Assembly (NCBI GenBank): GCA_040879605.1
Contig: JBBDKB010000027.1
Coordinates: 18,250-56,476 of the forward strand
Reading direction: 5' to 3'
Source: Minisyncoccota bacterium
GTDB taxonomy: Bacteria > Patescibacteriota > Minisyncoccia > Phycocordibacterales > JBBDKB01
DNA: 38,227 nt
Under the pieces are notes generated by a model. It ran no database searches. It was not told the origin of the DNA and saw nothing but the letters and a program-made list of their open reading frames with translations. Of the stretch, positions 1,356 to 36,776 are shown one piece after another (position 1 is the stretch's first letter; each line of letters starts with the position of its first letter). The translations under genes and the position numbers were made by a program.

Positions 1356-3224
1356 ATGGGATTATTTGATTTTTTAAAGCAGAATAAGGACGAAGGGATT
1401 GATATTGCTCCCGTATTGCCTCGAGAAATTTATGAGGCGGGGGTTCTTGAATTGAAAGACGTAATCGCTCCTTCAGCACTTCAAATCACTCCCCGCGAGC
1501 TGAATTTGGGAGACAAATTTGTGCGAACTTTTTTTGTTATCTCCTATCCGCGCTACCTCAATGACAACTGGTTCTCCCCGATCATCAACCTTGATAAAGT
1601 ATTTGATATTTCCATCTTTATCCACCCAATAGACACCGCGACTGTCTTGAGAAAATTCCAAAAGAAGGTTGCGGAAGTACAAAGTCAGATTCATGAACGT
1701 GAACGCAAAGGATTAGTGCGCGACCCAAAGCTTGACGCTGCCTACCAAAACCTTGAAATGCTCCGCGACAGACTCCAGCAGGCCGAGGAGAGACTTTTTG
1801 ACGTCGGTCTTTATATATCAGTGTACGGGGACTCAAAAGAAGAGCTGAATAAAGCCGAGTCGGAAATTAAATCAATACTTGAATCAAAGCTTGTCTATTT
1901 AAAACCGGCACTTTTCCAGCAAGAGCAAGGATACAGAAGTGTTCTCCCAATAGGGAAGGATGAGATTGCAGTTCATTCAAAACTTAACTCCTCTCCACTT
2001 TCAAGTCTTTTTCCTTTTATTTCTTTTGACCTCACCGCCGACAAAGGGATCCTTTATGGAATCAACAGACACAACTCAAGCTTGATTCTTTTTGATCGAT
2101 TCTCTCTCCCAAACTACAATTCCGTTATGTTTGCGACTTCCGGTGCCGGAAAATCGTACGCCGCGAAACTTGAAATCTTGAGATCTTTGATGTTTGACAG
2201 CGATGTAATCGTAATTGACCCGGAGCGCGAATATGAATATCTCGCAAACGCAACGGGAGGAAGACACTTCAACATCTCTCTCACGTCAGAGCACCACATT
2301 AATCCTTTTGATCTTCCGGTTCCACGGGAAGATGAATCTCCCGCAGATGTGCTTCGCTCCAACATCGTGAACTTGGTTGGTCTATTCCGCATCATGCTTG
2401 GCGGCCTCTCCCCTGAGGAAGATGCAGTCATCGATAGAGCAATCACTGAAACCTATGCCCTGAAAGATATTACAGGAGAGAGCGACTATTCTGGAATTGA
2501 ACCACCTCTTCTCTCTGATTTTGAGCTTGTGCTTGCGGGAATGGAAGGAAGTGAATCCCTTGTGCAGAGACTTTCAAAATATACAAAAGGAACTTGGTCA
2601 GGATTCATTAATCGGCCAACAAACGTTGATATCAATAAGAAATTTATTGTCTTTTCCGTGCGCGATATGGAGGATGAATTAAAACCGGTCGCGATGTATA
2701 TCGTCACTCACTTTATTTGGACTGCGGTACGAAGAGAACTGAAAAAGCGAATGCTTGTCGTTGATGAAGCCCACTGGATGATGCGGTCGGAAGACACCGC
2801 CTCCTTCCTCTATTCCATCGCGAAGCGCGGACGAAAATATTATCTCGGTCTTTCAACCCTCACTCAAGATGTTGATGATTTCTTAAACTCTCCTTATGGT
2901 CTTCCAATGATCACAAACTCATCGATGCAAATGCTCCTCAAACAATCGCCAACGGCGATTGATAGGCTGCAAGATACATTTAACCTCACAGACGAAGAAA
3001 AATACTTGCTTCTTGAATCAGATGTCGGAGAGGGAATTTTCTTTGCCGGACTGAAGCACGTTGCGATTAAAATTATTGCTTCTTATACGGAAGATCAAAT
3101 CATCACCTCAGACCCTTCTCAACTTCTTGCAATCAAAAAAGCTAAGAGCGAAAAATATGTGGAAGAGGGAAGCAACACCGAAGAGCCTCCGCCACAGAAG
3201 CTAGCAGACACTTTCAAGCAATGA
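1356..3224 (+). CDS. VirB4/TraC/TrbE-type type IV secretion ATPase
   Basis: 622 aa. Walker A is ATSGAGKSY and Walker B is MLVVDEAHWMM. The VirB4-like N-domain and the C-terminal LSTLTQD motif region are present. Confidence 0.85.
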   Translation: MGLFDFLKQNKDEGIDIAPVLPREIYEAGVLELKDVIAPSALQITPRELNLGDKFVRTFFVISYPRYLNDNWFSPIINLDKVFDISIFIHPIDTATVLRKFQKKVAEVQSQIHERERKGLVRDPKLDAAYQNLEMLRDRLQQAEERLFDVGLYISVYGDSKEELNKAESEIKSILESKLVYLKPALFQQEQGYRSVLPIGKDEIAVHSKLNSSPLSSLFPFISFDLTADKGILYGINRHNSSLILFDRFSLPNYNSVMFATSGAGKSYAAKLEILRSLMFDSDVIVIDPEREYEYLANATGGRHFNISLTSEHHINPFDLPVPREDESPADVLRSNIVNLVGLFRIMLGGLSPEEDAVIDRAITETYALKDITGESDYSGIEPPLLSDFELVLAGMEGSESLVQRLSKYTKGTWSGFINRPTNVDINKKFIVFSVRDMEDELKPVAMYIVTHFIWTAVRRELKKRMLVVDEAHWMMRSEDTASFLYSIAKRGRKYYLGLSTLTQDVDDFLNSPYGLPMITNSSMQMLLKQSPTAIDRLQDTFNLTDEEKYLLLESDVGEGIFFAGLKHVAIKIIASYTEDQIITSDPSQLLAIKKAKSEKYVEEGSNTEEPPPQKLADTFKQ

Positions 3225-3670
3225 AGAATGTTGAGTATAGAATAGGCGGGGCACGGAAAACTCTCATGGTCTCCGTCGCAATATTCTTTGACTCCGTCCA
3301 ACTTCTTACAAAGGCATTCCATGTGATTCCTGGAGTAGGAACATTCGCGGCTATTCTTATCGGATGGACGATGAGTATTCTCGCATGGCTCACTTTTTTT
3401 CTCTGGTTTAGCCTTGCTGGAGTAAAGCCCTTCTCTGGAAGAAAGCAAATAAAAAAGTTCATCTTAAACTTTGGAAGTGGGCTCATTGAAGCAATCCCTA
3501 TCCTCAACGCGCTCCCTATGTGGAGTGTGTACGTGTGGTGGATAATACGCATATCGCGTGAGGAAGACAAAGAAAATCAGAAAGAACGCCTAGAAAGCCA
3601 AACAAGGTATACACAACCACAGGAAGCGGCGAATGATAACAGCGAAGAACGTGGTAAAATGGCAGCATGA
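3221..3670 (+). CDS. Small integral membrane protein (3-4 predicted TM helices), T4SS-like operon
   Basis: 149 aa. Hydrophobic stretches include VSVAIFFDSVQLL, GTFAAILIGWTMSILAWLTFFLWFSLAG and IPILNALPMWSVYVWWII. There is a 4-nt ATGA-type overlap with both neighbours. Confidence 0.6.
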   Translation: MKNVEYRIGGARKTLMVSVAIFFDSVQLLTKAFHVIPGVGTFAAILIGWTMSILAWLTFFLWFSLAGVKPFSGRKQIKKFILNFGSGLIEAIPILNALPMWSVYVWWIIRISREEDKENQKERLESQTRYTQPQEAANDNSEERGKMAA

Positions 3671-4659
3671 GAGGAAAAATTCTATTCGCTTCTTTTTTAC
3701 TCTTTTCTCTTCCCATTTTCCTCAATGCGCAAGGGTTTGGGACTGGAATTGAAGTCACCGTAAGCCCGTCAAGCCCTCGCCCACAAGAAGCAGTAACACT
3801 CAGGGTGCAGGGCTTCTCATTTGATTTAAATAGAGCTCCTATACGCTGGTTTGTAAATGGAGAACTAAGAAAAAGTGGCGTGGGGGAACGTGAGTTCTCA
3901 ACTACGGCGCCTTCACTTGGGTCTTCCTTGAGAGTTGAGGTACTCGCTGAAAATCCAAATGGAGATATTGTAAGCGCCTCAACAGTTATACAACCCTCAG
4001 AAATCACCCTCCTCTGGGAGGCCGAGACATACACCCCGCCTTTCTATAGAGGAAAGGCACTCCCAAGCCACAGCTCAACAATAAAAGTCACCGCATTCCC
4101 AAATTTTGGAGCAGGAACAAATCCAAACACACTCATCTACACATGGAGACAAGATGGAGTGGTGTTGGGGAGCAAGTCTGGAACAGGAAAGCAAACCCTC
4201 ATATTGAGAGGGACACGGCCGTTTTCTGATACGAGCATCTCCGTTGATGTTTCCAATCAAAGCGGCTCCCTCTCCGGGAGAGGATTCTTAACTCTCTCTC
4301 CAAAAAACCCTGAAATTATTCTCTACGAAGAGCATCCGACTCTCGGTGTTTTGCTTGAAAGAGCGCTTCAAGGAGAGTTTGAATTACCGCGAAGCGAAAC
4401 AACTCTTGTCGCATACCCCTACTTCTTCTCAGGGGATGTAAGATCTAATCCTTCCCTTGAATACAAATGGAGTCTCAATGGAAGTGAAACGAATACCGAC
4501 GCAAGTGATGCCTCTTCAATTACACTGCGTCACACAGGGGAAGGAGGCGGTACTTCATCCTTAAGACTCACAATTCAAAACGCGCAAGAGATTCTTCAAT
4601 CTGCCCAGAGGCAACTTCAAATTTCTTTTGGAAATCAAGGAGAACAAAGTAGATTTTAA
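3667..4659 (+). CDS. Secreted hypothetical protein (N-terminal signal peptide)
   Basis: 330 aa. The signal-like N-terminus is MRGKILFASFLLFSLPIFLNAQG. The start overlaps the previous stop (ATGA). Confidence 0.6.
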   Translation: MRGKILFASFLLFSLPIFLNAQGFGTGIEVTVSPSSPRPQEAVTLRVQGFSFDLNRAPIRWFVNGELRKSGVGEREFSTTAPSLGSSLRVEVLAENPNGDIVSASTVIQPSEITLLWEAETYTPPFYRGKALPSHSSTIKVTAFPNFGAGTNPNTLIYTWRQDGVVLGSKSGTGKQTLILRGTRPFSDTSISVDVSNQSGSLSGRGFLTLSPKNPEIILYEEHPTLGVLLERALQGEFELPRSETTLVAYPYFFSGDVRSNPSLEYKWSLNGSETNTDASDASSITLRHTGEGGGTSSLRLTIQNAQEILQSAQRQLQISFGNQGEQSRF

Positions 4660-4661
4660 TT

Positions 4662-5351
4662 ATGAGAATTTTTCTTTTTGCACTACTTTTTTTTGGAATC
4701 CCGCTTGCGCTCTTTGCACAAGGCTTTACCCCTCTTACCACTGATTTCCCAATACTGAGCACGGAGAATGCTTCTTTTTCAAGCGTACTCAACATTTTTC
4801 TTAATGTGGTCATTGGTATTGCCGCCGTGCTTGCGGTTATTAAAATTGCAATCGGAGGGTTTAAATATATGGGCACGGAGTCCTTTTCGAGCAAGGGGGA
4901 GGCGAAAGAGGATATTACAAACGCGGTGATTGGTTTGATTATTGTCCTTGCCGCGGTATTTATCCTCAACATCATAAACCCGGATCTCATTAAGTTAGAT
5001 GTTTTTAGAAATACGGAATCAGTTCAGGTAGAAACGGGAGGGAATGCACCCGATTATGAAAACGAGGCGTCGCTCGGCACCGACTGGTGTTACGGGAGGC
5101 TTCTTGATGGACCTTTCTGTGAGGAAACGCGAGCGGAATGTGAAGCAAGAAGAGATGCCGCAACGAGTGTGTACGAGACTCCATGTGAAGAAAGAGACGA
5201 CCCAACCGAACAGCTTGGTATTGGTTGGTGTTATACGGAGACGCAAACCAGAACTAGAACCTCCTCAGGAGGAGAAACTATATTCTGTTTCCAAAACAGA
5301 GACGCGTGTGAGGCAGAGGCCGGAGAAAAAACCTGTACTCGCCAAGAATGA
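4662..5351 (+). CDS. TrbC/VirB2-like pilin candidate with Cys-rich duplicated C-terminal extension
   Basis: 229 aa. It has a signal peptide (LALFAQG), then two hydrophobic helices (VLNIFLNVVIGIAAVLAVIKIAIGG and AVIGLIIVLAAVFILNII) separated by a charged loop, as in VirB2/TrbC pilins. The C-terminus carries two WCY...FC...CEA...C modules. Confidence 0.5.
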   Translation: MRIFLFALLFFGIPLALFAQGFTPLTTDFPILSTENASFSSVLNIFLNVVIGIAAVLAVIKIAIGGFKYMGTESFSSKGEAKEDITNAVIGLIIVLAAVFILNIINPDLIKLDVFRNTESVQVETGGNAPDYENEASLGTDWCYGRLLDGPFCEETRAECEARRDAATSVYETPCEERDDPTEQLGIGWCYTETQTRTRTSSGGETIFCFQNRDACEAEAGEKTCTRQE

Positions 5352-15410: not shown

Positions 15411-15893
15411 TTACCATTTTTCGCTTGCAAGGGAGGTAAGGGCAATGGCAATCGCATCAAACTCATCGTCATATTTTATTTCTTTTTTGATGCGAATGAG
15501 CCGAGGCACCATGTCAATGACACTTTCTTTGTCGCTCCTTCCATACCCAGTCACCGCGACTTTTATTTGCTGGGGAGTGTATTCAAACACAGAGAGGTTG
15601 TGTGATTCTGCAAGGAAAAGCAACATTCCTCTCACTTCCGAAACAGAAGTTGCTGTTTTTTGGTTGTTTCCAAAATAAAGTTTTTCAAGAGCGCAGGCAT
15701 CAGGTCTGTATTTCTTAATGAGTTCCTCTACTCTCTTTCCTACGTGGTGGAGCCGCGAAGAAAGGGAGTTACTTTTTTCTGTTTCTATGCACTCAGAGTG
15801 GAGAAGCACTTCCTCCTTATCTTTTTCTATAATAGCAACGCCGCACCTGTCGTACCCTGGGTCAATACCAAGTACGCGCGTACTATTACTCAT
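15411..15893 (-). CDS. ruvC: Holliday junction resolvase RuvC
   Basis: VLGIDPGYDRCGVAII, GYGRSDKESV and DEFDAIAIALT are RuvC motifs. The start is chosen at ATG 15893 (MSNSTRVLGIDPG), which overlaps the yebC stop as ATGAGTAA. Confidence 0.9.
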   Translation of the reverse strand: MSNSTRVLGIDPGYDRCGVAIIEKDKEEVLLHSECIETEKSNSLSSRLHHVGKRVEELIKKYRPDACALEKLYFGNNQKTATSVSEVRGMLLFLAESHNLSVFEYTPQQIKVAVTGYGRSDKESVIDMVPRLIRIKKEIKYDDEFDAIAIALTSLASEKW

Positions 15894-16419
15894 TTGCGTT
15901 TGTGAAGACATCCTCAACATCTTCAAGTTCAAGAAGCACGTCAACCAAAACATCCAGTTTCTCTTTATCTTCTGGAGTTATGCCCATAGTTGTTGTGGGT
16001 CTCCATCCGTCTCCCGCTTTTTCAAATGCCCAACTCGCCGCGCCTTGTTCTGCAAGTGCAAATCCTTGCTTTGTGAGTGCATGGCGAACTTCTCCTCCCG
16101 TTCTGTTTCGGTTGTCTGTGTACCCCTCAATAATGAGTGCAACACTTCCTGGGCCATATGCTTCGTAGACCACTTGCTCTAAATTATCCGCCTCTCCGGA
16201 TTTTCCTTTTGCGATGGCTCTCGCAATATTTCCCTTAGGCATATTTGCCGTACGCGCTTTTTCTATTGCAAGGCGTAGCGCAGGAGAATTCTCATCGCCA
16301 CCAACCTTTTTTGATTCTATTGAAATGAGTTGTGCAAGACGAGAAAATTCCTTGCTTTTCTTCTCATCCGTCGCTGCCTTCTTATGCTTTATTTTTGACC
16401 ACTTGTTGTGTCCTGACAT
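15886..16419 (-). CDS. yebC: YebC/PmpR family transcriptional/translational regulator (short, 177 aa)
   Basis: N-terminal MSGHNKWSKIKHKKAA, plus NMPKGNIARAI and YEAYGPGSVALIIEGYTDNRNRT, are diagnostic. It is about 60 aa shorter than typical family members. Confidence 0.85.
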   Translation of the reverse strand: MSGHNKWSKIKHKKAATDEKKSKEFSRLAQLISIESKKVGGDENSPALRLAIEKARTANMPKGNIARAIAKGKSGEADNLEQVVYEAYGPGSVALIIEGYTDNRNRTGGEVRHALTKQGFALAEQGAASWAFEKAGDGWRPTTTMGITPEDKEKLDVLVDVLLELEDVEDVFTNANE

Positions 16420-16845
16420 AGTTATATGATTACTTTTCTTGAGTAAGTGGTCAAAAATGCAAGAGGGGTCGGGAGACCAGCTGATCTCCCGTGGAGGAGA
16501 GCAGTGACCCCGAGCTTGTCGGGGGGGAGCGTTGAGAACCGTGGGTTCTCAAAAAAGCTGTAAGCTTTTGTTTTTGACCACTTGTTATGCCCACTCATGT
16601 TTGTAGTATAAAGCATCTTGCCCCAGTGGACCCAATTTCGTGGGCAAAAATGAAAGAGAGGTCGAGAGACCAGCTGGTCTCTCGAGGAGGAGAGCAGCGA
16701 CCCCGTGAGATAGTGGGCTTGAGAGCTCTATCTTGCGGGCGAGCGTTGAGAACCGAGCCTGCCCTTCCGTAGTCGACAGGCGAAGGCGGGGGTTCTCAAA
16801 AAAGCTGTAAGCTTTTGTTTTTAACCATTTGTTATGTCCTGTCAT
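16420..16845 (-). repeat. Two tandem structured elements, each beginning with a diverged copy of the yebC start (unit B 16420-16598, unit A 16599-16845)
   Basis: On the minus strand, ATGACAGGACATAACAAATGGTTAAAAAC (from 16845) and ATGAGTGGGCATAACAAGTGGTCAAAAAC (from 16598) parallel the real start ATGTCAGGACACAACAAGTGGTCAAAAAT (from 16419). A 32-nt block is identical between units (16544-16575 = 16791-16822). Hairpin modules are shared. Confidence 0.8.
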
Positions 16846-16882
16846 ACTTGTAGTGCGATACTATCTTATAGAAATGTGCTAG

Positions 16883-16906
16883 TACACTACGATTAATCGT
16901 AGTGTA
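16883..16906 (-). terminator. Perfect 24-nt palindrome downstream of ruvB (terminator-like)
   Basis: TACACTACGATT|AATCGTAGTGTA lies 20 nt after the ruvB stop. The T-tract is weak. Confidence 0.45.
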
Positions 16907-16925
16907 GGGAGTTTGTCTTTTGCGT

Positions 16926-17939
16926 TTAAAGAAGCTTGCTCTGTTCTTCCGGAGGATCAAACCCGAGGTGCTCATACGCTTTTTTTGTCGCGACACGACC
17001 TCGAGGGGTTCTCTCTAAGAGCCCGCATTGAATCAAGTATGGTTCGTGCACTTCCTCAATTGTTGATTGCTCCTCTGCTGTCGCAGCAGCAAGCGTGTTT
17101 AACCCTACAGGACCTCCGCTAAATTTCTCAATAATTGTTTCAAGAATTTTTCTGTCAGTTGAGGCGAGACCAAGCTCATCAATTTCAAGAAGGGAAAGCG
17201 CATCATCAACAAGTTTTTTAGAAATCTGTTTTTTATGTACCTGCCCGAAATCCCGCACGCGCTTCAGAAGATAGTTTGCCATGCGAGGTGTTTTGCGGCT
17301 TCTTTTTGAGATTTCTTCAATCGCGTCTTCTTCTATATTTATTCCAAGAATGCTTGAAGACCTCTTTACGATCTCTCCGATCTCTGTTTCTGAGTAAAAA
17401 TCAAGGCGGAATGTTCCTCCTGAAAAGCGGGAGCGCAGTGGGGCGGAGAGAAGGGCAACTCTTGTTGTTGCGGCAACGAGCGTGAAAGGAGGGAGTTCAA
17501 GTTGGATGGTGCGCGCTGAAGGCCCTTTTCCGATAATGATATCGAGCACTCCAGACTCAAGGGCGGGGTAGAGTACTTCTTCAATCGTTTTGTTTAAGCG
17601 ATGGATTTCATCAATAAAAAGAATGTCTCCTTCGCCCAAATTTGTGAGAATTGCCGCAAGATCCCCAACCCGCTCTATTGCAGGGCCGGATGTTATCTTC
17701 ATTTGCGCACCAATTTCAGTAGAAATAAGGTGGGCAAGAGTTGTTTTTCCTAAACCAGGAGGACCGTAGAAGAGGAGATGTTCAGGGGAGTGAGAGCGCT
17801 CTTTTGCCGCAGTAAGAAGGATACGCAGATTCTCTTTAATCGCGCTCTGGCCAATATACTCTTCCCATTTTTGAGGACGAAGCGTTCGGTCGAGTGCTCT
17901 GTCGAACTCTCTTCCACTTAACTTCTCACTACTTGACAT
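16926..17939 (-). CDS. ruvB: Holliday junction branch migration ATPase RuvB
   Basis: 337 aa. Walker A is GPPGLGKTT and Walker B is ILFIDEIHRL. The sensor and winged-helix C-terminus are typical. Confidence 0.95.
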   Translation of the reverse strand: MSSSEKLSGREFDRALDRTLRPQKWEEYIGQSAIKENLRILLTAAKERSHSPEHLLFYGPPGLGKTTLAHLISTEIGAQMKITSGPAIERVGDLAAILTNLGEGDILFIDEIHRLNKTIEEVLYPALESGVLDIIIGKGPSARTIQLELPPFTLVAATTRVALLSAPLRSRFSGGTFRLDFYSETEIGEIVKRSSSILGINIEEDAIEEISKRSRKTPRMANYLLKRVRDFGQVHKKQISKKLVDDALSLLEIDELGLASTDRKILETIIEKFSGGPVGLNTLAAATAEEQSTIEEVHEPYLIQCGLLERTPRGRVATKKAYEHLGFDPPEEQSKLL

Positions 17940-24488: not shown

Positions 24489-24561
24489 CCGCCTATAGCT
24501 CAATTGGCAGAGCAGTCCCCTTTTAAGGGAAAGGTTCCAGGTTCGATTCCTGGTGGGCGGA
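24489..24561 (+). tRNA. tRNA-Lys (anticodon UUU), CCA not encoded
   Basis: Hand-folded cloverleaf: acceptor CCGCCTA/TGGGCGG, D arm GCTC-AATTGGCA-GAGC, anticodon arm GTCCC-CTTTTAA-GGGAA, variable AGGTT, T arm CCAGG-TTCGATT-CCTGG, discriminator A. The 1-72 pair is an unusual C-G. Confidence 0.8.
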
Positions 24562-24562
24562 C

Positions 24563-25393
24563 ATGAATGCATTTAAGGAACAGTGTATTGCACTTCGTAA
24601 AAAAGACTATTCTCTTGCTCAAATTACGGAAGTCACAGGCAGACCGAAAACGTCTGTGTTCTTCCATATCCGGGACATCCCGTTGAGTAAAAAGAAACAA
24701 CAGCTCATAAGGCAAGGATATGCCGAGCATATACGGAAGTTTGCACTTGAGAGAAAAGGGAAAAGCTTGCGCTCGTTTCGGAAATTTCAAGACTGGAATC
24801 CTGAAACGGTCCTTTTAGTATCTCATCTGCTCTTTGATGGAGAAATAACCTCCTCAAGTTGTGTGTATCACAATCGAAGTAGAGCGCTTCTTGAAAGAGT
24901 TGAAAGATTAATGAAAAATATCTATGAATTTGAACCGGCGAGGCATGCTAACAAAAAAACAGGCGTCTTGAGGATCAGCTATTTCAATGTCGCTTTGAGC
25001 GCGTTTTTTAGGGAAAAAGCGAATGAACTTAAGAAGACGATTACCACCCAGCCTCTCAATTGTAAGAGAGAATTCCTCCGAGCCTTCTTCGATGATGAGG
25101 GATGCATTGACTTTCAGCTCGTGCAAAGAAAAAAGAGAATCAGGGGATATCAAAAGGATGTTGCGGTTCTGAAAATTGTACAACGCCTTCTCTTGAGCTT
25201 TGGTATTAGTTCCTATTTGTCGGTTCCTAACGAGGTGGTCATTTCCGGAAAAGAAAACCTCCTAAAGTTTCAGAAAGAAGTCAACTTCTCACCAGGTGTG
25301 CGAGTTAATGGAAAGCGCGCAAACAGCAGATGGAAGAAAAACCTAGAAAAGCGCAAACTCTTGGAACTTGCGATACACTCGTTTCGTACTTGA
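24563..25393 (+). CDS. Free-standing double-motif LAGLIDADG homing endonuclease with N-terminal HTH
   Basis: 276 aa. The two LAGLIDADG-type motifs are SHLLFDGEIT and LRAFFDDEGCI. The N-terminal YSLAQITEVTGRPKTSVFFHI is HTH-like. The ATG starts 2 nt after the tRNA-Lys 3' end. Confidence 0.8.
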   Translation: MNAFKEQCIALRKKDYSLAQITEVTGRPKTSVFFHIRDIPLSKKKQQLIRQGYAEHIRKFALERKGKSLRSFRKFQDWNPETVLLVSHLLFDGEITSSSCVYHNRSRALLERVERLMKNIYEFEPARHANKKTGVLRISYFNVALSAFFREKANELKKTITTQPLNCKREFLRAFFDDEGCIDFQLVQRKKRIRGYQKDVAVLKIVQRLLLSFGISSYLSVPNEVVISGKENLLKFQKEVNFSPGVRVNGKRANSRWKKNLEKRKLLELAIHSFRT

Positions 25394-32537: not shown

Positions 32538-32772
32538 TCTTTTTTTAGGTATGGTGATGGCGAGGCGAGGTCGGGTTTCTCCTTGAGGGAGAAACCGGCG
32601 GAATTCAAATGCGGACTCGGTTTTGCCAAAACTATTTTCTGGGGATTTGGATTTGGCAAAACCTCTGCTCTGATTTCCTGCCCGCATTCATTCCCCCAGA
32701 CCCCCTTCTGCGGGCGGGATTCGCTTTGAATTTTGACCGACAGGGTTTATAAAAAGCGGAATTGGTGGTATG
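32538..32772 (+). repeat. Copy L of a ~235-nt structured leader element (sense to the downstream operon)
   Basis: It is ~95% identical to the reverse complement of 36538-36776. Helices are 32574-32582/32588-32596, 32601-32613/32722-32732, 32620-32630/32652-32662 and 32677-32685/32710-32718. It ends ...GCGGAATTGGTGGTATG, with the ATG at 32770. Confidence 0.85.
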
Positions 32773-32832
32773 TTGAATCGAATCTTGAACGATCGAAGAT
32801 TACGCTCTTTCACAACCAGAAAGGAGGACGCG

Positions 32833-35482: not shown

Positions 35483-36540
35483 AATTTACTAATTTTTAGA
35501 AAAATTTGTTTAATGATCATGGTGGCATAACTGCCGGTAGGCAGAAAAAACAAAATGGTTAGTTTTTTCTTGTTCTTGTGCAACTCGTCTTTTTCTAAGT
35601 TGTCAGCATATATTGTAGTCGCAACCACGACATTCCTGTTTTTAACTTTTCGTTTGGTTGTAAATTTCTCGTCCTTGAATTCATACCCGTTTACCTCACA
35701 AATATAAGGACACTGAAATGAGCGCGTTGTTGGCAAATACAAATCTCCAACATTTTCAAAATGAAATTTTTTGCTTTTAGTATTGTCTTTGATCAGTAAA
35801 GAAGTCCGATTATTCCAAAGAAAGCTATTATATGAAGAAACAAAGAAAGAAACTTTTTTGGGGTTGATTTTTTTAAAAACTTCTTTACAAGAAATAACAT
35901 TTTCCAATTTTGGGAAAAAGCTAGGCAGAATGTTGTTTGTAGCTTTCATATGACTATAGGCCTCTATCCAATCTCTTTTTACTATTGCCTCACCAATCAA
36001 GTAAGTATTGTAAGGTCCGCCCGGCATTCCAAATCTTTGATTGTCGTAATAATTTACGAACTGATGGTGTCTGTGAGTTGAAAGATAATCTAAAAGATTC
36101 TTCGCAACATTGCTTTCCAGATTTCTAACTACAATTCTAAACGAATTCCCGTGCAACATTCGCTCTTTTATTGGCTTATCTCCATAACCAATAACATGTT
36201 TGATTAGGGCGTACTGATTTCCTTCTCCATACTTTTTATTGAAAGCCGTAATATCCTTTTTACTCAAGATTTTTTTAACAGAAATAAGTTGTTCTGTAAT
36301 TGCATCCTCGTCCTTTAATCCTTGATTGGCAACATCTTCAAATTTGAGATTGAAAAATGACTTAATATAATCCAGGACATCAAAGGTCGTAAGTCCGGAT
36401 TTTTGAAGCCAAAAATACGTAAATTGAGAAGGTTTTTTAGATGCAAGAGGAGGCATTAAAGAAACCTCCGTCACCTGGAAGTCTTCGTTTTTACATTTTA
36501 TTTTGTACCCTTCAGGCTTGTTCATAATGTATAAGAACAT
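35479..36540 (-). CDS. TruD/Pus7-family pseudouridine synthase-like protein
   Basis: 353 aa. Motifs are EDFQVTEV, the catalytic-type GLKDEDAITEQ and NYYDNQRFG. The first ATG (36540) is the last triplet of leader copy R. An alternative ATG is at 36525. Confidence 0.8.
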   Translation of the reverse strand: MFLYIMNKPEGYKIKCKNEDFQVTEVSLMPPLASKKPSQFTYFWLQKSGLTTFDVLDYIKSFFNLKFEDVANQGLKDEDAITEQLISVKKILSKKDITAFNKKYGEGNQYALIKHVIGYGDKPIKERMLHGNSFRIVVRNLESNVAKNLLDYLSTHRHHQFVNYYDNQRFGMPGGPYNTYLIGEAIVKRDWIEAYSHMKATNNILPSFFPKLENVISCKEVFKKINPKKVSFFVSSYNSFLWNNRTSLLIKDNTKSKKFHFENVGDLYLPTTRSFQCPYICEVNGYEFKDEKFTTKRKVKNRNVVVATTIYADNLEKDELHKNKKKLTILFFLPTGSYATMIIKQIFLKISKL

Positions 36541-36776
36541 ACCACCAATTCCGCTTTTTATAAACCCTATCGGTCAAAATTCAAAGCGAATCCCGCCCGC
36601 ATTCATTCCCCAGACCCCTTTCTGCGGGCGGGAAACCAGAGCAGAGGTTTTGCCAAATCCAAATCCCCAGAAAAATAGTTTGGCAAAACCGAGTCCGCAT
36701 TTGAATTCCGCCAGTTTCTCCCCCCAAGGAGAAACCCGACCTCGCCTCGCCATCACCATACCGAAAAAAAGAAATC
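36538..36776 (-). repeat. Copy R of the ~235-nt structured leader element (sense to the TruD-like/CYTH operon)
   Basis: It is the reverse complement of copy L apart from a few substitutions or indels and an inverted 23-nt hairpin loop (36601-36623). Confidence 0.85.

What the first reader, a model, noticed from the sequence alone, without database searches (positions are those of the whole stretch)
16420..16845. Two tandem structured elements upstream of yebC, each carrying its own diverged copy of the yebC start codon region
**Seen, read on the minus strand.** The layout is [copy A of the yebC 5' end][element A][copy B][element B][real yebC].

The three 5' ends are:

| Copy | Sequence |
|---|---|
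| A | ATG ACA GGA CAT AAC AAA TGG TTA AAA AC |
| B | ATG AGT GGG CAT AAC AAG TGG TCA AAA AC |
| Gene | ATG TCA GGA CAC AAC AAG TGG TCA AAA AT |

Most differences are third-position or Ser-synonymous, as if the copies diverged while coding.

After codon 9 both copies switch to an identical module, AAAACAAAAGCTTACAGCTTTTTTGAGAACC. The hairpins that follow are:
- AAAAGCT-tac-AGCTTTT.
- TTGAGAACC-cac-GGTTCTCAA. In element A the same arms are split by a 36-nt insert (16755-16790).
- CCCCGA-caagc-TCGGGG.
- GGGAGATCAGCTGGTCTCCC, or the perfect CGAGAGACCAGCTGGTCTCTCG in element A. The U-G pair in element B is valid only on the minus strand.

Element B ends with TTTTTGACCACTT (plus-strand 16445-16457). 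This is the exact complement of AAGTGGTCAAAAA in both copy B and the real yebC (16392-16404). It can therefore pair either upstream, closing the element, or downstream, enclosing the real start codon in a 40-nt loop.

**Inference, three alternatives.**
- (a) These are remnants of small mobile or integrative elements that target the yebC 5' end and bring a replacement 5' end (att-like direct repeats).
- (b) This is a MITE-like element whose inverted termini mimic the yebC coding sequence.
- (c) This is a duplicated regulatory leader with alternative pairing.

I know of no described element with this organisation.
Basis: partly seen in the sequence, partly recalled or inferred. Interest (0 to 1): 0.7.

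Follow-up and report, generated by a model that had tools for sequence, protein, structure and literature searches.

The report
Tandem mini-insertions carrying spare yebC starts
Between ruvB and yebC of a Patescibacteria genome sit two diverged copies of a small hairpin-rich insertion, each carrying its own promoter and its own version of the first nine yebC codons, which looks most like stacked miniature integrative elements but has no known relatives.

Summary
On the minus strand the order is ruvB, head A, body A, head B, body B, yebC. The two units are about 88% identical in their shared blocks. Each has four hairpins. A 14-nt inverted copy of yebC codons 6-10 lies 40 nt upstream of the real copy.

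Six of seven relatives whose ruvB-yebC junction is visible have a 2-46 nt spacer. The seventh has 187 unrelated bases. So this is a lineage-specific insertion, not a conserved leader.

The bodies are not protein-coding and match no Rfam family. No other copy turned up in the window, genomes, metagenomes, viral contigs, phages, plasmids or 5.8 billion proteins.

Two new facts shape the reading:
- This genome uses leaderless promoters, and the tail of each unit supplies one to the next head.
- Head B differs from the real head at five bases, all synonymous (chance about 4e-5), and is one base from another lineage's yebC. Head A has two amino-acid changes and a dead -10 box.

Best reading (0.45): two miniature integrase-less integrative units added one after the other, each bringing a promoter and a replacement 5' end. 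The rivals are a duplicated regulatory leader and a local rearrangement.

The parts
16926..17939 (-). ruvB, the upstream neighbour. In relatives it ends 2-46 nt before yebC.
   Evidence: Pfam RuvB_N, AAA_lid_4 and RuvB_C. Relatives' junctions.
16883..16906 (.). 24-nt perfect palindrome TACACTACGATTAATCGTAGTGTA in the 80 nt between the ruvB stop and head A. Its role is unknown; it may be a ruvB terminator.
   Evidence: the repeat finder I7.
16817..16845 (-). Head A: ATGACAGGACATAACAAATGGTTAAAAAC, a decayed copy of yebC codons 1-9 (MTGHNKWLK). It opens an 86-codon ORF (16585-16845) through body A.
   Evidence: It is 2 nt from the L001-type head, and both changes are non-synonymous. The hexamer at the -10 position is CGCACT.
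16651..16816 (-). Body A: H1 16800-16816; H2 arms 16791-16799 and 16746-16754 with an inserted tip at 16755-16790; H3 about 16702-16739; H4 16662-16685.
16640..16650 (-). X'A: TTTTTGCCCAC, a degenerate inverted copy of the head. It pairs poorly with head A (-4.9 kcal/mol) and better with head B codons 2-4 (-14.0).
   Evidence: (I4, I9).
16599..16639 (-). Tail A. It holds a -10 box, TATACT (16605-16610), ending exactly 6 nt before the head B ATG. That is the leaderless-promoter geometry of this genome.
16570..16598 (-). Head B: ATGAGTGGGCATAACAAGTGGTCAAAAAC (MSGHNKWSK). It opens a 58-codon ORF (16422-16598) that stops 2 nt before the yebC ATG. X_B is 16571-16583.
   Evidence: It has 5 synonymous differences from the real head and is 1 nt from L022's yebC head.
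16459..16569 (-). Body B: H1 16553-16569; H2 16532-16552; H3 16508-16524; H4 16470-16491. The linkers between hairpins are C/U-rich.
16445..16458 (-). X'B: ATTTTTGACCACTT, the exact reverse complement of yebC codons 6-10. It contains the -35-like hexamer TTGACC (16449-16454).
   Evidence: (I2, I5).
16420..16444 (-). Tail B. It holds AATCAT (16426-16431), which lies 17 nt after TTGACC and 6 nt before the yebC ATG.
15886..16419 (-). yebC (177 aa, TACO1/YebC family). X_G, at 16391-16404, is the partner of X'B.
15411..15893 (-). ruvC. Its likely ATG (15891-15893) overlaps the yebC stop.
   Evidence: plus RuvC lengths of 157-162 aa in relatives.

Best explanation
**What it is.** The 425 bases are two stacked copies of a miniature, gene-less integrative unit that targets the first about 28 nt of yebC.

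**What each unit contains.** Read on the minus strand, each unit holds:
- a GC-rich four-hairpin body;
- an inverted copy (X') of yebC codons 6-10;
- a short tail with a leaderless promoter;
- its own ATG and nine yebC codons.

**How insertion works (inferred).** Recombination between the unit's head and the chromosomal head, by an enzyme supplied in trans, splits the gene's 5' end in two. The resident head is left upstream, fused to the body as a dead start. The unit's head and promoter then take over yebC. A second, related unit later did the same at the then-functional head. Head A would therefore be the oldest displaced start, head B the next, and the present head came with unit B.

**Effect today.** yebC-ruvC is uncoupled from ruvB. 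It is probably transcribed as a leaderless mRNA from TTGACC-17-AATCAT-6-ATG, whose -35 box lies inside X'B. In RNAs that read through from upstream, X'B can fold back on codons 6-10.

**Shown.** The anatomy, the empty sites in relatives, the allele pattern of the heads and the promoter geometry.

**Inferred.** Mobility, the order of events, the enzyme involved and every expression effect.
For: 1. **Head and body count.** Two homologous bodies are bounded by three direct copies of the target's 5' end. This n+1 pattern is what tandem site-specific accretion produces (PMC5704250).
2. **Empty sites.** Six of seven relatives with a visible ruvB-yebC junction have spacers of 2-46 nt. One has 187 unrelated nt. 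None has X'.
3. **The heads are different functional-type alleles, not decayed copies of one another.**
   - Head B and the real head differ at 5 of 27 nt with no amino-acid change, including TCA versus AGT for Ser2. Five random substitutions leave the peptide intact with probability about 4e-5.
   - Head B is 1 nt from L022's yebC head.
   - AGT at codon 2 occurs in 2 of 9 relatives.
   - Head divergence at synonymous sites exceeds body divergence (about 12%), which does not fit an in-place duplication.
4. **Decay increases with distance from the gene.** Head A has S2T and S8L, its -10 position reads CGCACT, and its closing helix has collapsed to -4.9 kcal/mol. Unit B has a 13/13 closing helix and a 14/14 match to the gene.
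5. **Each tail supplies a leaderless promoter to the next head.** Nine of 27 genes in the window have TAnnnT ending exactly 6 nt before the ATG (P about 5e-11). Head B has TATACT-6-ATG. The real head has TTGACC-17-AATCAT-6-ATG.
6. **The bodies are not coding.** pN is 0.15 against pS 0.06. Protein and Pfam searches found nothing.
Against: - There is no integrase, transposase or HUH gene in the 38-kb window. The units encode nothing, so an unseen trans-acting enzyme has to be assumed.
- No second copy of the body was found anywhere:
  - the window and relatives' loci, by BLAST and by a covariance model;
  - exact-pattern scans of genome, metagenome and viral collections, which gave only chance hits;
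  - phage and plasmid collections;
  - six-frame peptide searches.
- An element that moves between lineages should leave more traces. However, the large scans required 19 exactly matching bases, and the nearest sampled YebC is only 69% identical.
- Known decayed integrative elements (CIMEs) are kilobases long, not 180-250 nt.
- The multi-hairpin body and the inverted copy X' are not features of canonical att sites.
- The two tails align poorly, at about 50% over the last 24 nt.
- All head arguments rest on 27-29 nt.
Confidence: 0.45

Rival explanations
1. A duplicated cis-regulatory RNA leader. Each unit would be a structured 5' leader in which X' pairs either with a decoy start region upstream or with codons 6-10 of the next ORF. 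The upstream ORFs relay ribosomes or sense translation, and the stop of the ORF opened by head B lies 2 nt before the yebC ATG. YebC is a translation factor for proline-rich stretches (PMC11990639, PMC12234827), and that ORF contains a Pro-Pro-Asp motif (PPD).
For: - The 14/14 complement encloses the start codon in a 40-nt loop and is the longest such fold-back among 27 genes, where others reach at most 11 nt.
- Pairing of X'B with the real head (-16.9 kcal/mol) and with head B (-16.4) is nearly equal.
- X'A pairs with head B at -14.0 kcal/mol.
- The hairpins are intact in both units despite about 12% divergence.
- The frame that starts at each ATG is open through both bodies, and both indels are multiples of 3.
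- The retention of 500 nt in a compact genome also points this way.
Against: - It is absent from every relative examined.
- There is no Rfam match, even at E <= 10.
- PPD is present only in the head B ORF, not in the head A ORF.
- If yebC is transcribed from the promoter whose -35 lies in X'B, then X'B is not in that mRNA.
- This reading does not explain why heads B and G differ only synonymously.
- Two sequences give no covariation power.
Confidence: 0.17
2. A purely local rearrangement with no mobility. Replication template switching produced a direct-inverted-direct copy of the yebC 5' end around filler DNA. Unequal crossing-over between the direct repeats then duplicated it. The hairpins were kept or perfected by templated correction within DNA palindromes.
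For: - The order X (direct), X' (inverted), X (direct) is what two template switches produce.
- Perfect palindromes such as 16662-16685, and clustered changes that create GTGGGC/GCCCAC between head B and X'A, look like templated mutation.
- No other copies and no mobility genes were found.
- Strand-neutral hairpins suit a DNA-level process.
Against: - The bodies show no similarity to neighbouring sequence.
- Copies made in place should start identical. Five synonymous-only differences between heads B and G (P about 4e-5) and the near-identity of head B to another lineage's allele do not fit.
- Equal-age units should be equally decayed, and they are not.
Confidence: 0.18
3. Plus-strand small RNA genes. 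The antisense of each yebC head would act as a promoter (TTGACC-16-CATAGT for the real head), driving a structured RNA of about 140-190 nt. This RNA would end at the H1 hairpin plus the T-run that lies in the next head.
For: - There is a promoter-like site on the plus strand at 16395-16422 with a TG extension.
- Read on the plus strand, H1 is followed by GTTTTTG.
- The plus-strand folds are at least as stable as the minus-strand folds, and H3 of unit A is better on the plus strand.
Against: - H4 of unit B and the closing helices favour the minus strand.
- H1 is a weak hairpin, at -5 kcal/mol.
- The antisense -10 of head B, CATGTT, is poor.
- There is no Rfam match on either strand.
- This reading does not explain the head allele pattern.
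Confidence: 0.05
4. A metagenome assembly artefact in which two strain variants of one locus were joined in tandem.
For: - The source is a metagenome-type contig from a lineage with no close relative in any collection.
- Reads are not available.
Against: - The units differ by about 12% plus indels, so this is not a collapsed or duplicated identical repeat.
- The only sequence shared at the A/B join is ACTACAA, too short to mislead an assembler.
- The three heads and two tails are all distinct.
Confidence: 0.05

Closest known systems
SXT/R391 integrative conjugative elements at the 5' end of prfC
   Same: [quoted passage not shown]
- From my own recollection of Hochhut and Waldor 1999, the element supplies a new promoter and 5' coding end so that the gene stays expressed. 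That is the logic inferred here.
   Different: - SXT is about 100 kb and encodes its own tyrosine integrase and Xis.
- Its core is about 17 bp.
- The units here are 180-250 nt, encode nothing, are built of hairpins, and carry an inverted copy of the target.
CIMEs (cis-mobilizable elements) and tandem accretion at att sites
   Same: - These are decayed integrative elements that keep attL and attR but have lost their integration genes.
[quoted passage not shown]
- The array here has n+1 target-end repeats and greater decay farther from the gene.
   Different: - Described CIMEs are kilobases long, lie mostly at tRNA or gene 3' ends, and sit beside an ICE or IME with a matching integrase.
- No integrase and no partner element are visible here.
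Prophages that carry a replacement gene end (phage 21 and e14 in icd of E. coli; recalled, not checked here)
   Same: [quoted passage not shown] Head B relates to the real head in the same way.
   Different: Those replace the 3' end of the gene, are full prophages or remnants with an integrase, and are not structured miniature units.
MITEs and palindromic repeat elements with outward promoters (Correia, ERIC, Rickettsia palindromic elements; recalled)
   Same: They are small (100-250 nt), gene-less and hairpin-rich, they have inverted termini, and they can bring promoters to adjacent genes.
   Different: - Those are multi-copy with short target-site duplications.
- Here there is one locus, no target-site duplication, 29-39 nt direct repeats that copy the target gene, and termini that equal the target sequence.
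Fold-back inhibition of read-through transcripts in IS10 and IS50 (recalled)
   Same: - A promoter sits at the end of the element.
- Transcripts entering from outside also carry an upstream complement that sequesters the start region.
- This matches the -35 box lying inside X'B.
   Different: In IS10 and IS50 this protects a transposase gene within the element. Here the start region belongs to a host gene. The effect is inferred only.
Putative mobile promoters (PMC3575422)
   Same: Highly similar upstream regions are reused in front of genes.
   Different: Those are defined by reuse in front of different genes. Here the same gene's start is repeated at one locus.

Membership tests
Site-specific integrative element array (ICE/IME/CIME accretion) | [quoted passage not shown] | tested here: met
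   Three heads of 29-39 nt bound two homologous bodies.
Site-specific integrative element array (ICE/IME/CIME accretion) | Empty target site in related genomes | tested here: met
   Six of seven visible ruvB-yebC junctions have 2-46 nt spacers, and one has 187 unrelated nt.
Site-specific integrative element array (ICE/IME/CIME accretion) | A recombinase of matching specificity, either in the element or elsewhere in the genome | tested here: not met
   No integrase, transposase or HUH domain was found among 35 window ORFs scanned against Pfam. The rest of the genome is not available, so an enzyme acting in trans cannot be excluded.
Site-specific integrative element array (ICE/IME/CIME accretion) | Related elements at the same target in other genomes, or evidence of excision | tested here: not met
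   - No true match to a 19-base exact pattern from block 1 in the genome or metagenome collections. That pattern and a second one from the 3' block also found nothing in viral contigs.
- No match in phage or plasmid collections.
- These searches tolerate little divergence.
- Excision cannot be tested without reads.
Site-specific integrative element array (ICE/IME/CIME accretion) | The replacement gene end is of foreign origin (an allele different from the resident one) | tested here: met
   Heads B and G differ at five synonymous positions only (P about 4e-5). Head B is 1 nt from L022's allele.
MITE | Terminal inverted repeats | tested here: inconclusive
   Unit B has a 13-bp perfect inverted pair. 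Unit A has 8 Watson-Crick pairs and one G-U wobble out of 13. The left arm is part of the gene-derived head, so it is not clearly an element terminus.
MITE | Short target-site duplication and many copies per genome | tested here: not met
   There is no duplication beyond a possible 2-nt AC, and no other copy in the 38 kb. Genome-wide copy number cannot be tested.
Conserved cis-regulatory RNA (riboswitch or leader) | Present upstream of orthologous genes in related genomes | tested here: not met
   Absent from all relatives examined.
Conserved cis-regulatory RNA (riboswitch or leader) | Match to a curated RNA family | tested here: not met
   Rfam 15 gave no match at the gathering threshold. At E <= 10 it gave only hairpin-level noise.
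Conserved cis-regulatory RNA (riboswitch or leader) | Covariation that supports the helices | tested here: inconclusive
   With two sequences there is one compensatory pair, and 247 of 500 shuffles do as well.
Small protein genes (the ORFs opened by heads A and B) | Purifying selection and homologues | tested here: not met
   In the bodies pN is 0.15 against pS 0.06. There were no hits among 5.8 billion proteins or in Pfam.
Integron cassette / attC | R''/R' core sites (RYYYAAC ... GTTRRRY) and a nearby integron integrase | tested here: not met
   Reading the sequence shows no GTTRRRY core at the unit boundaries. No integrase is present in the window.

The most novel reading that the evidence does not exclude
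These are members of an undescribed class of miniature homing elements in Patescibacteria, 140-250 nt long, gene-less and structured.
- Their folded single strand rebuilds, as the closing helix X:X', a double-stranded copy of the chromosomal target, which is the first codons of yebC.
- They insert there by a recombinase supplied in trans, or by a single-strand mechanism of the kind used by CTX phage or integron attC sites.
- They carry a leaderless promoter plus a replacement 5' end, so the host translation-factor gene survives each insertion.
Probability: 0.15. Interest if true: 0.8.

Novelty: new variant of a known kind. Interest (0 to 1): 0.48.

Why it matters
**If the accretion reading is right.** Gene-end-replacing integration would also exist in a miniature, gene-less form, in the reduced genomes of Patescibacteria, where mobile elements are poorly known. 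In a genome that relies on leaderless promoters, a mobile promoter has to carry the start codon and some codons with it. The locus would also be a natural record of successive replacements of a gene's 5' end.

**If the leader reading is right.** This would be the first cis-regulatory device reported for yebC, a recently recognised translation factor.

**Present status.** Either way, the evidence comes from a single locus in an unsampled lineage. It is a lead, not a result.

Tried and rejected
**Known RNA families**
- Rfam 15 on the whole window at the gathering threshold found only tRNA-Lys. Positions 16300-17000 at E <= 10 gave only hairpin noise.
- ARAGORN found nothing at the locus.

**Other copies of the element**
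- Pattern searches, sensitive BLAST and a purpose-built covariance model over the window and five relatives' loci found only the two units. The other matches were generic hairpins.
- The exact pattern GCTNNNAGCTTTTTTGAGAACC gave 10 hits in genome contigs and 6 in metagenome contigs. All are confined to the pattern itself, so they are chance hits.
- Two patterns in viral contigs gave nothing.
- blastn against phages and plasmids gave no match.

**Protein-level searches**
- The ORFs opened by heads A and B, searched as an alignment, gave no hits. The other five frames, searched as one concatenated query, also gave no hits.
- Pfam found nothing for these ORFs.
- The window's own YebC is not on record, so the rest of the source genome could not be reached.

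**Ideas tested and dropped**
- A helix extending beyond the 14 nt: it is no better than shuffled sequence.
- Start-region fold-back as a general habit of this genome: it is not.
- Canonical intrinsic terminators in the bodies. H1 is too weak. The T-run after H4 of unit B is 13 nt away. Only H4 of unit A was flagged as terminator-like, and the region has no more such sites than its shuffles.
- A polyproline-sensing upstream ORF: PPD occurs in one unit only.
- Retron, integron attC, IS110 bridge RNA, IS200/IS605 and group I or II intron readings. All were dropped for lack of the defining partner gene or motifs in the window.

Full report
**Context.** The window comes from a Patescibacteria (candidate phyla radiation) genome. 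The named homologues of its YebC are from Kaiserbacteria, Paceibacterota and the Patescibacteria group. The closest is only 69% identical. The locus reads on the minus strand as pilB-like ATPase, ruvB (16926-17939), a 506-nt spacer, yebC (15886-16419, 177 aa) and ruvC, whose start overlaps the yebC stop.

**Checking the observation.** All the described features are present.
- The repeat finder gives three copies of the yebC 5' end, at 16388-16426, 16567-16605 and 16814-16852, 77-82% identical. It also gives two long direct-repeat blocks that are 88% identical.
- The pairwise alignment shows a 32-nt block identical in both units. Two indels, of 33 and 21 nt, fall at the tips of hairpins H2 and H3.
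- Each module occurs exactly twice in the window and nowhere else.
- Unit B folds into four hairpins closed by a 13-bp helix, at -63.4 kcal/mol with z = -6.5. Unit A has the same hairpins, with longer H2 and H3.
- The inverted segment X'B (16445-16458) is complementary to the real gene over 14/14 nt (16391-16404) and to head B over 13/14 nt. The duplex energies are -16.9 and -16.4 kcal/mol.
- Complementarity does not extend significantly beyond 14 nt.
- No other gene in the window has a comparable fold-back; 14 nt compares with at most 11.

**What it is not.**
- It matches no Rfam family, at the gathering threshold or at E <= 10.
- It is not a tRNA or tmRNA.
- It is not protein-coding.
  - ORFs of 86 and 58 codons run from the two upstream ATGs through the bodies.
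  - In the bodies, however, pN (0.15) exceeds pS (0.06).
  - Neither these peptides nor the other five frames hit anything among 5.8 billion proteins or in Pfam.
- With only two sequences, covariation says nothing. There is one compensatory pair in H4, and 247 of 500 shuffles do as well.
- Strand evidence is mixed. H4 of unit B is better on the minus strand, and H3 of unit A is better on the plus strand.

**Relatives.** I fetched nine yebC loci from relatives with 60-69% identical YebC.
- The ruvB-yebC junction is visible in seven. The spacers are 2, 12, 37, 43, 45 and 46 nt, and in one case 187 nt of unrelated sequence.
- None contains the body or an inverted copy of the head.
- The 425 nt are therefore an insertion in this lineage, not a conserved leader.

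**Searches elsewhere.**
- An exact pattern from the invariant block gave only chance hits in 596 Gb of species-representative genomes and in the JGI metagenome contigs. It gave none in viral contigs.
- blastn against phages and plasmids gave nothing.
- A covariance model built from the two units found no further copy in the window or in five relatives' loci.
- These scans tolerate little divergence, and the lineage is unsampled. Absence is therefore weak evidence.
- No integrase, transposase or HUH enzyme is encoded in the window.

**New fact 1: leaderless promoters.**
- In 9 of 27 genes in the window, a TAnnnT hexamer ends exactly 6 nt before the ATG. The background frequency is 0.013 per position, giving P about 5e-11. 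Shine-Dalgarno motifs are rare, in 2 of 27 genes.
- Head B has TATACT at exactly that place.
- The real yebC has TTGACC-17-AATCAT-6-ATG, and the TTGACC lies inside X'B. That hexamer is simply the reverse complement of the codons TGG TCA A.
- Head A has CGCACT at the -10 position.
- So the tail of each unit supplies a leaderless promoter to the head that follows. In such a genome a promoter cannot be moved without its ATG.

**New fact 2: the heads are three different alleles.**
- Head B (ATG AGT GGG CAT AAC AAG TGG TCA AAA) and the real head (ATG TCA GGA CAC AAC AAG TGG TCA AAA) differ at five bases and no amino acid, including a TCA/AGT serine switch.
- Five random substitutions preserve the peptide with probability about 4e-5.
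- Head B is one base from the yebC head of relative L022. AGT at codon 2 occurs in 2 of 9 relatives.
- Head A equals the L001-type allele plus two non-synonymous changes, S2T and S8L.
- Heads B and G therefore diverged while each was a working yebC start. Their synonymous divergence is far above the roughly 12% divergence of the bodies.
- A duplication in place followed by neutral decay does not produce this pattern. Units that arrive carrying a head from another lineage do.

**Decay gradient.** The unit farther from the gene is the more decayed.
- In unit A the head carries amino-acid changes, the -10 box is lost, and the closing helix has fallen to -4.9 kcal/mol.
- Unit B has perfect 13-bp and 14-bp matches.
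- This is the order expected if a second unit integrated at the functional head, which is how accretion at attR is described for decayed integrative elements (PMC5704250).

**Best reading (0.45).** The locus holds two miniature, gene-less integrative units added in tandem at the yebC 5' end. Each brought a leaderless promoter and a replacement 5' end.
- The logic is that of SXT/R391 at the 5' end of prfC (PMC2791158). That the element provides the new promoter and N-terminus is my recollection of Hochhut and Waldor 1999.
- It is also the logic of phage 21 and e14 in icd (recalled).
- Unexplained: which enzyme acts, why the body is a four-hairpin module, and what X' is for beyond supplying a -35 box.
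- Against: no recombinase is in view, no other copies were found, and the size is far below that of known CIMEs.

**Rivals.**
1. **A duplicated regulatory leader with a decoy start (0.17).** The 14-bp fold-back, the near-equal alternative pairings, the open frames and the 3n indels speak for it. Its absence from relatives and the head alleles speak against it. YebC is a translation factor for proline-rich stretches (PMC11990639, PMC12234827). The ORF opened by head B contains PPD, but the ORF opened by head A does not. A proline-sensing leader is therefore only a remote possibility.
2. **A local template-switch rearrangement followed by unequal crossing-over (0.18).** This explains the direct-inverted-direct order and the perfect palindromes. 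It does not explain the head alleles or the unequal decay.
3. **Plus-strand small RNAs driven by the antisense of the heads (0.05).**
4. **An assembly artefact (0.05).** This cannot be tested without reads, and the divergence of the copies argues against it.

Regulatory side-effects are compatible with the best reading. One example is fold-back of read-through RNA, as in IS10 and IS50.

**Verdict.** The feature is real and lineage-specific, and it has no sequence relatives. Its organisation is best matched by known gene-end-replacing integration, in an unusually small and structured form. I rate it a new variant of a known kind, of moderate interest. The limits are that everything rests on one locus and on heads of 27-29 nt.

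Noticed in passing
window 32550-32775 and 36535-36760: - An inverted repeat of about 220 nt flanks a 3.8-kb segment holding a gmk-like gene, a dihydroorotate dehydrogenase gene, a CYTH-domain gene and truD.
- Each copy lies directly upstream of a divergent gene and runs through its ATG (GGTGGTATGTT).
- Inside each copy is a GC hairpin (TCCYGCCCGCA...TGCGGGCGGGA). Its 22-nt loop has the same orientation in both copies, so it is flipped relative to the surrounding inverted repeat.
   Followed up: partly
window, 27 gene starts (for example 7103-, 10005+, 13925+, 28547-): Nine of 27 genes have a TAnnnT hexamer ending exactly 6 nt before the ATG (P about 5e-11), and only 2 of 27 have a Shine-Dalgarno motif. 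This genome appears to rely heavily on leaderless mRNAs.
   Followed up: yes
window 24489-25393: A LAGLIDADG-domain ORF (24563-25393) starts one base after tRNA-Lys(ttt) at 24489-24562. It may be a homing-endonuclease remnant at the tRNA 3' end.
   Followed up: no
window 16883-16906: A 24-nt perfect palindrome, TACACTACGATTAATCGTAGTGTA, lies between the ruvB stop and head A. Nothing like it was seen in the relatives' short spacers that were read.
   Followed up: no
window 1356-5351: There is a type IV secretion-like cluster (a VirB4/TraG-like ATPase at 1356-3224 and a T4SS pilin at 4662-5351) next to yidC and dnaA-dnaN. Whether it belongs to a conjugative element was not examined.
   Followed up: no
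window 16395-16422 (+ strand): The antisense of the yebC head forms a promoter-like site, TTGACC-16-CATAGT with a TG extension. Because the head is conserved, the -35-like half (TTGACC, from codons TGG TCA A) is present in most relatives read. The -10-like half depends on the bases just upstream of the ATG.
   Followed up: partly
L021 (yebC at 45) and L024 (yebC at 29): Two of the nine relatives' contigs end 44 and 28 nt upstream of yebC. Assembly breaks at this junction could reflect variable or repeated sequence there in other populations.
   Followed up: no
L003 1352-1538: One relative has a 187-nt ruvB-yebC spacer that is unrelated to the units. It contains a hairpin (GCTTGGTAAAGCCAAGC) followed by a T-rich run.
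   Followed up: partly
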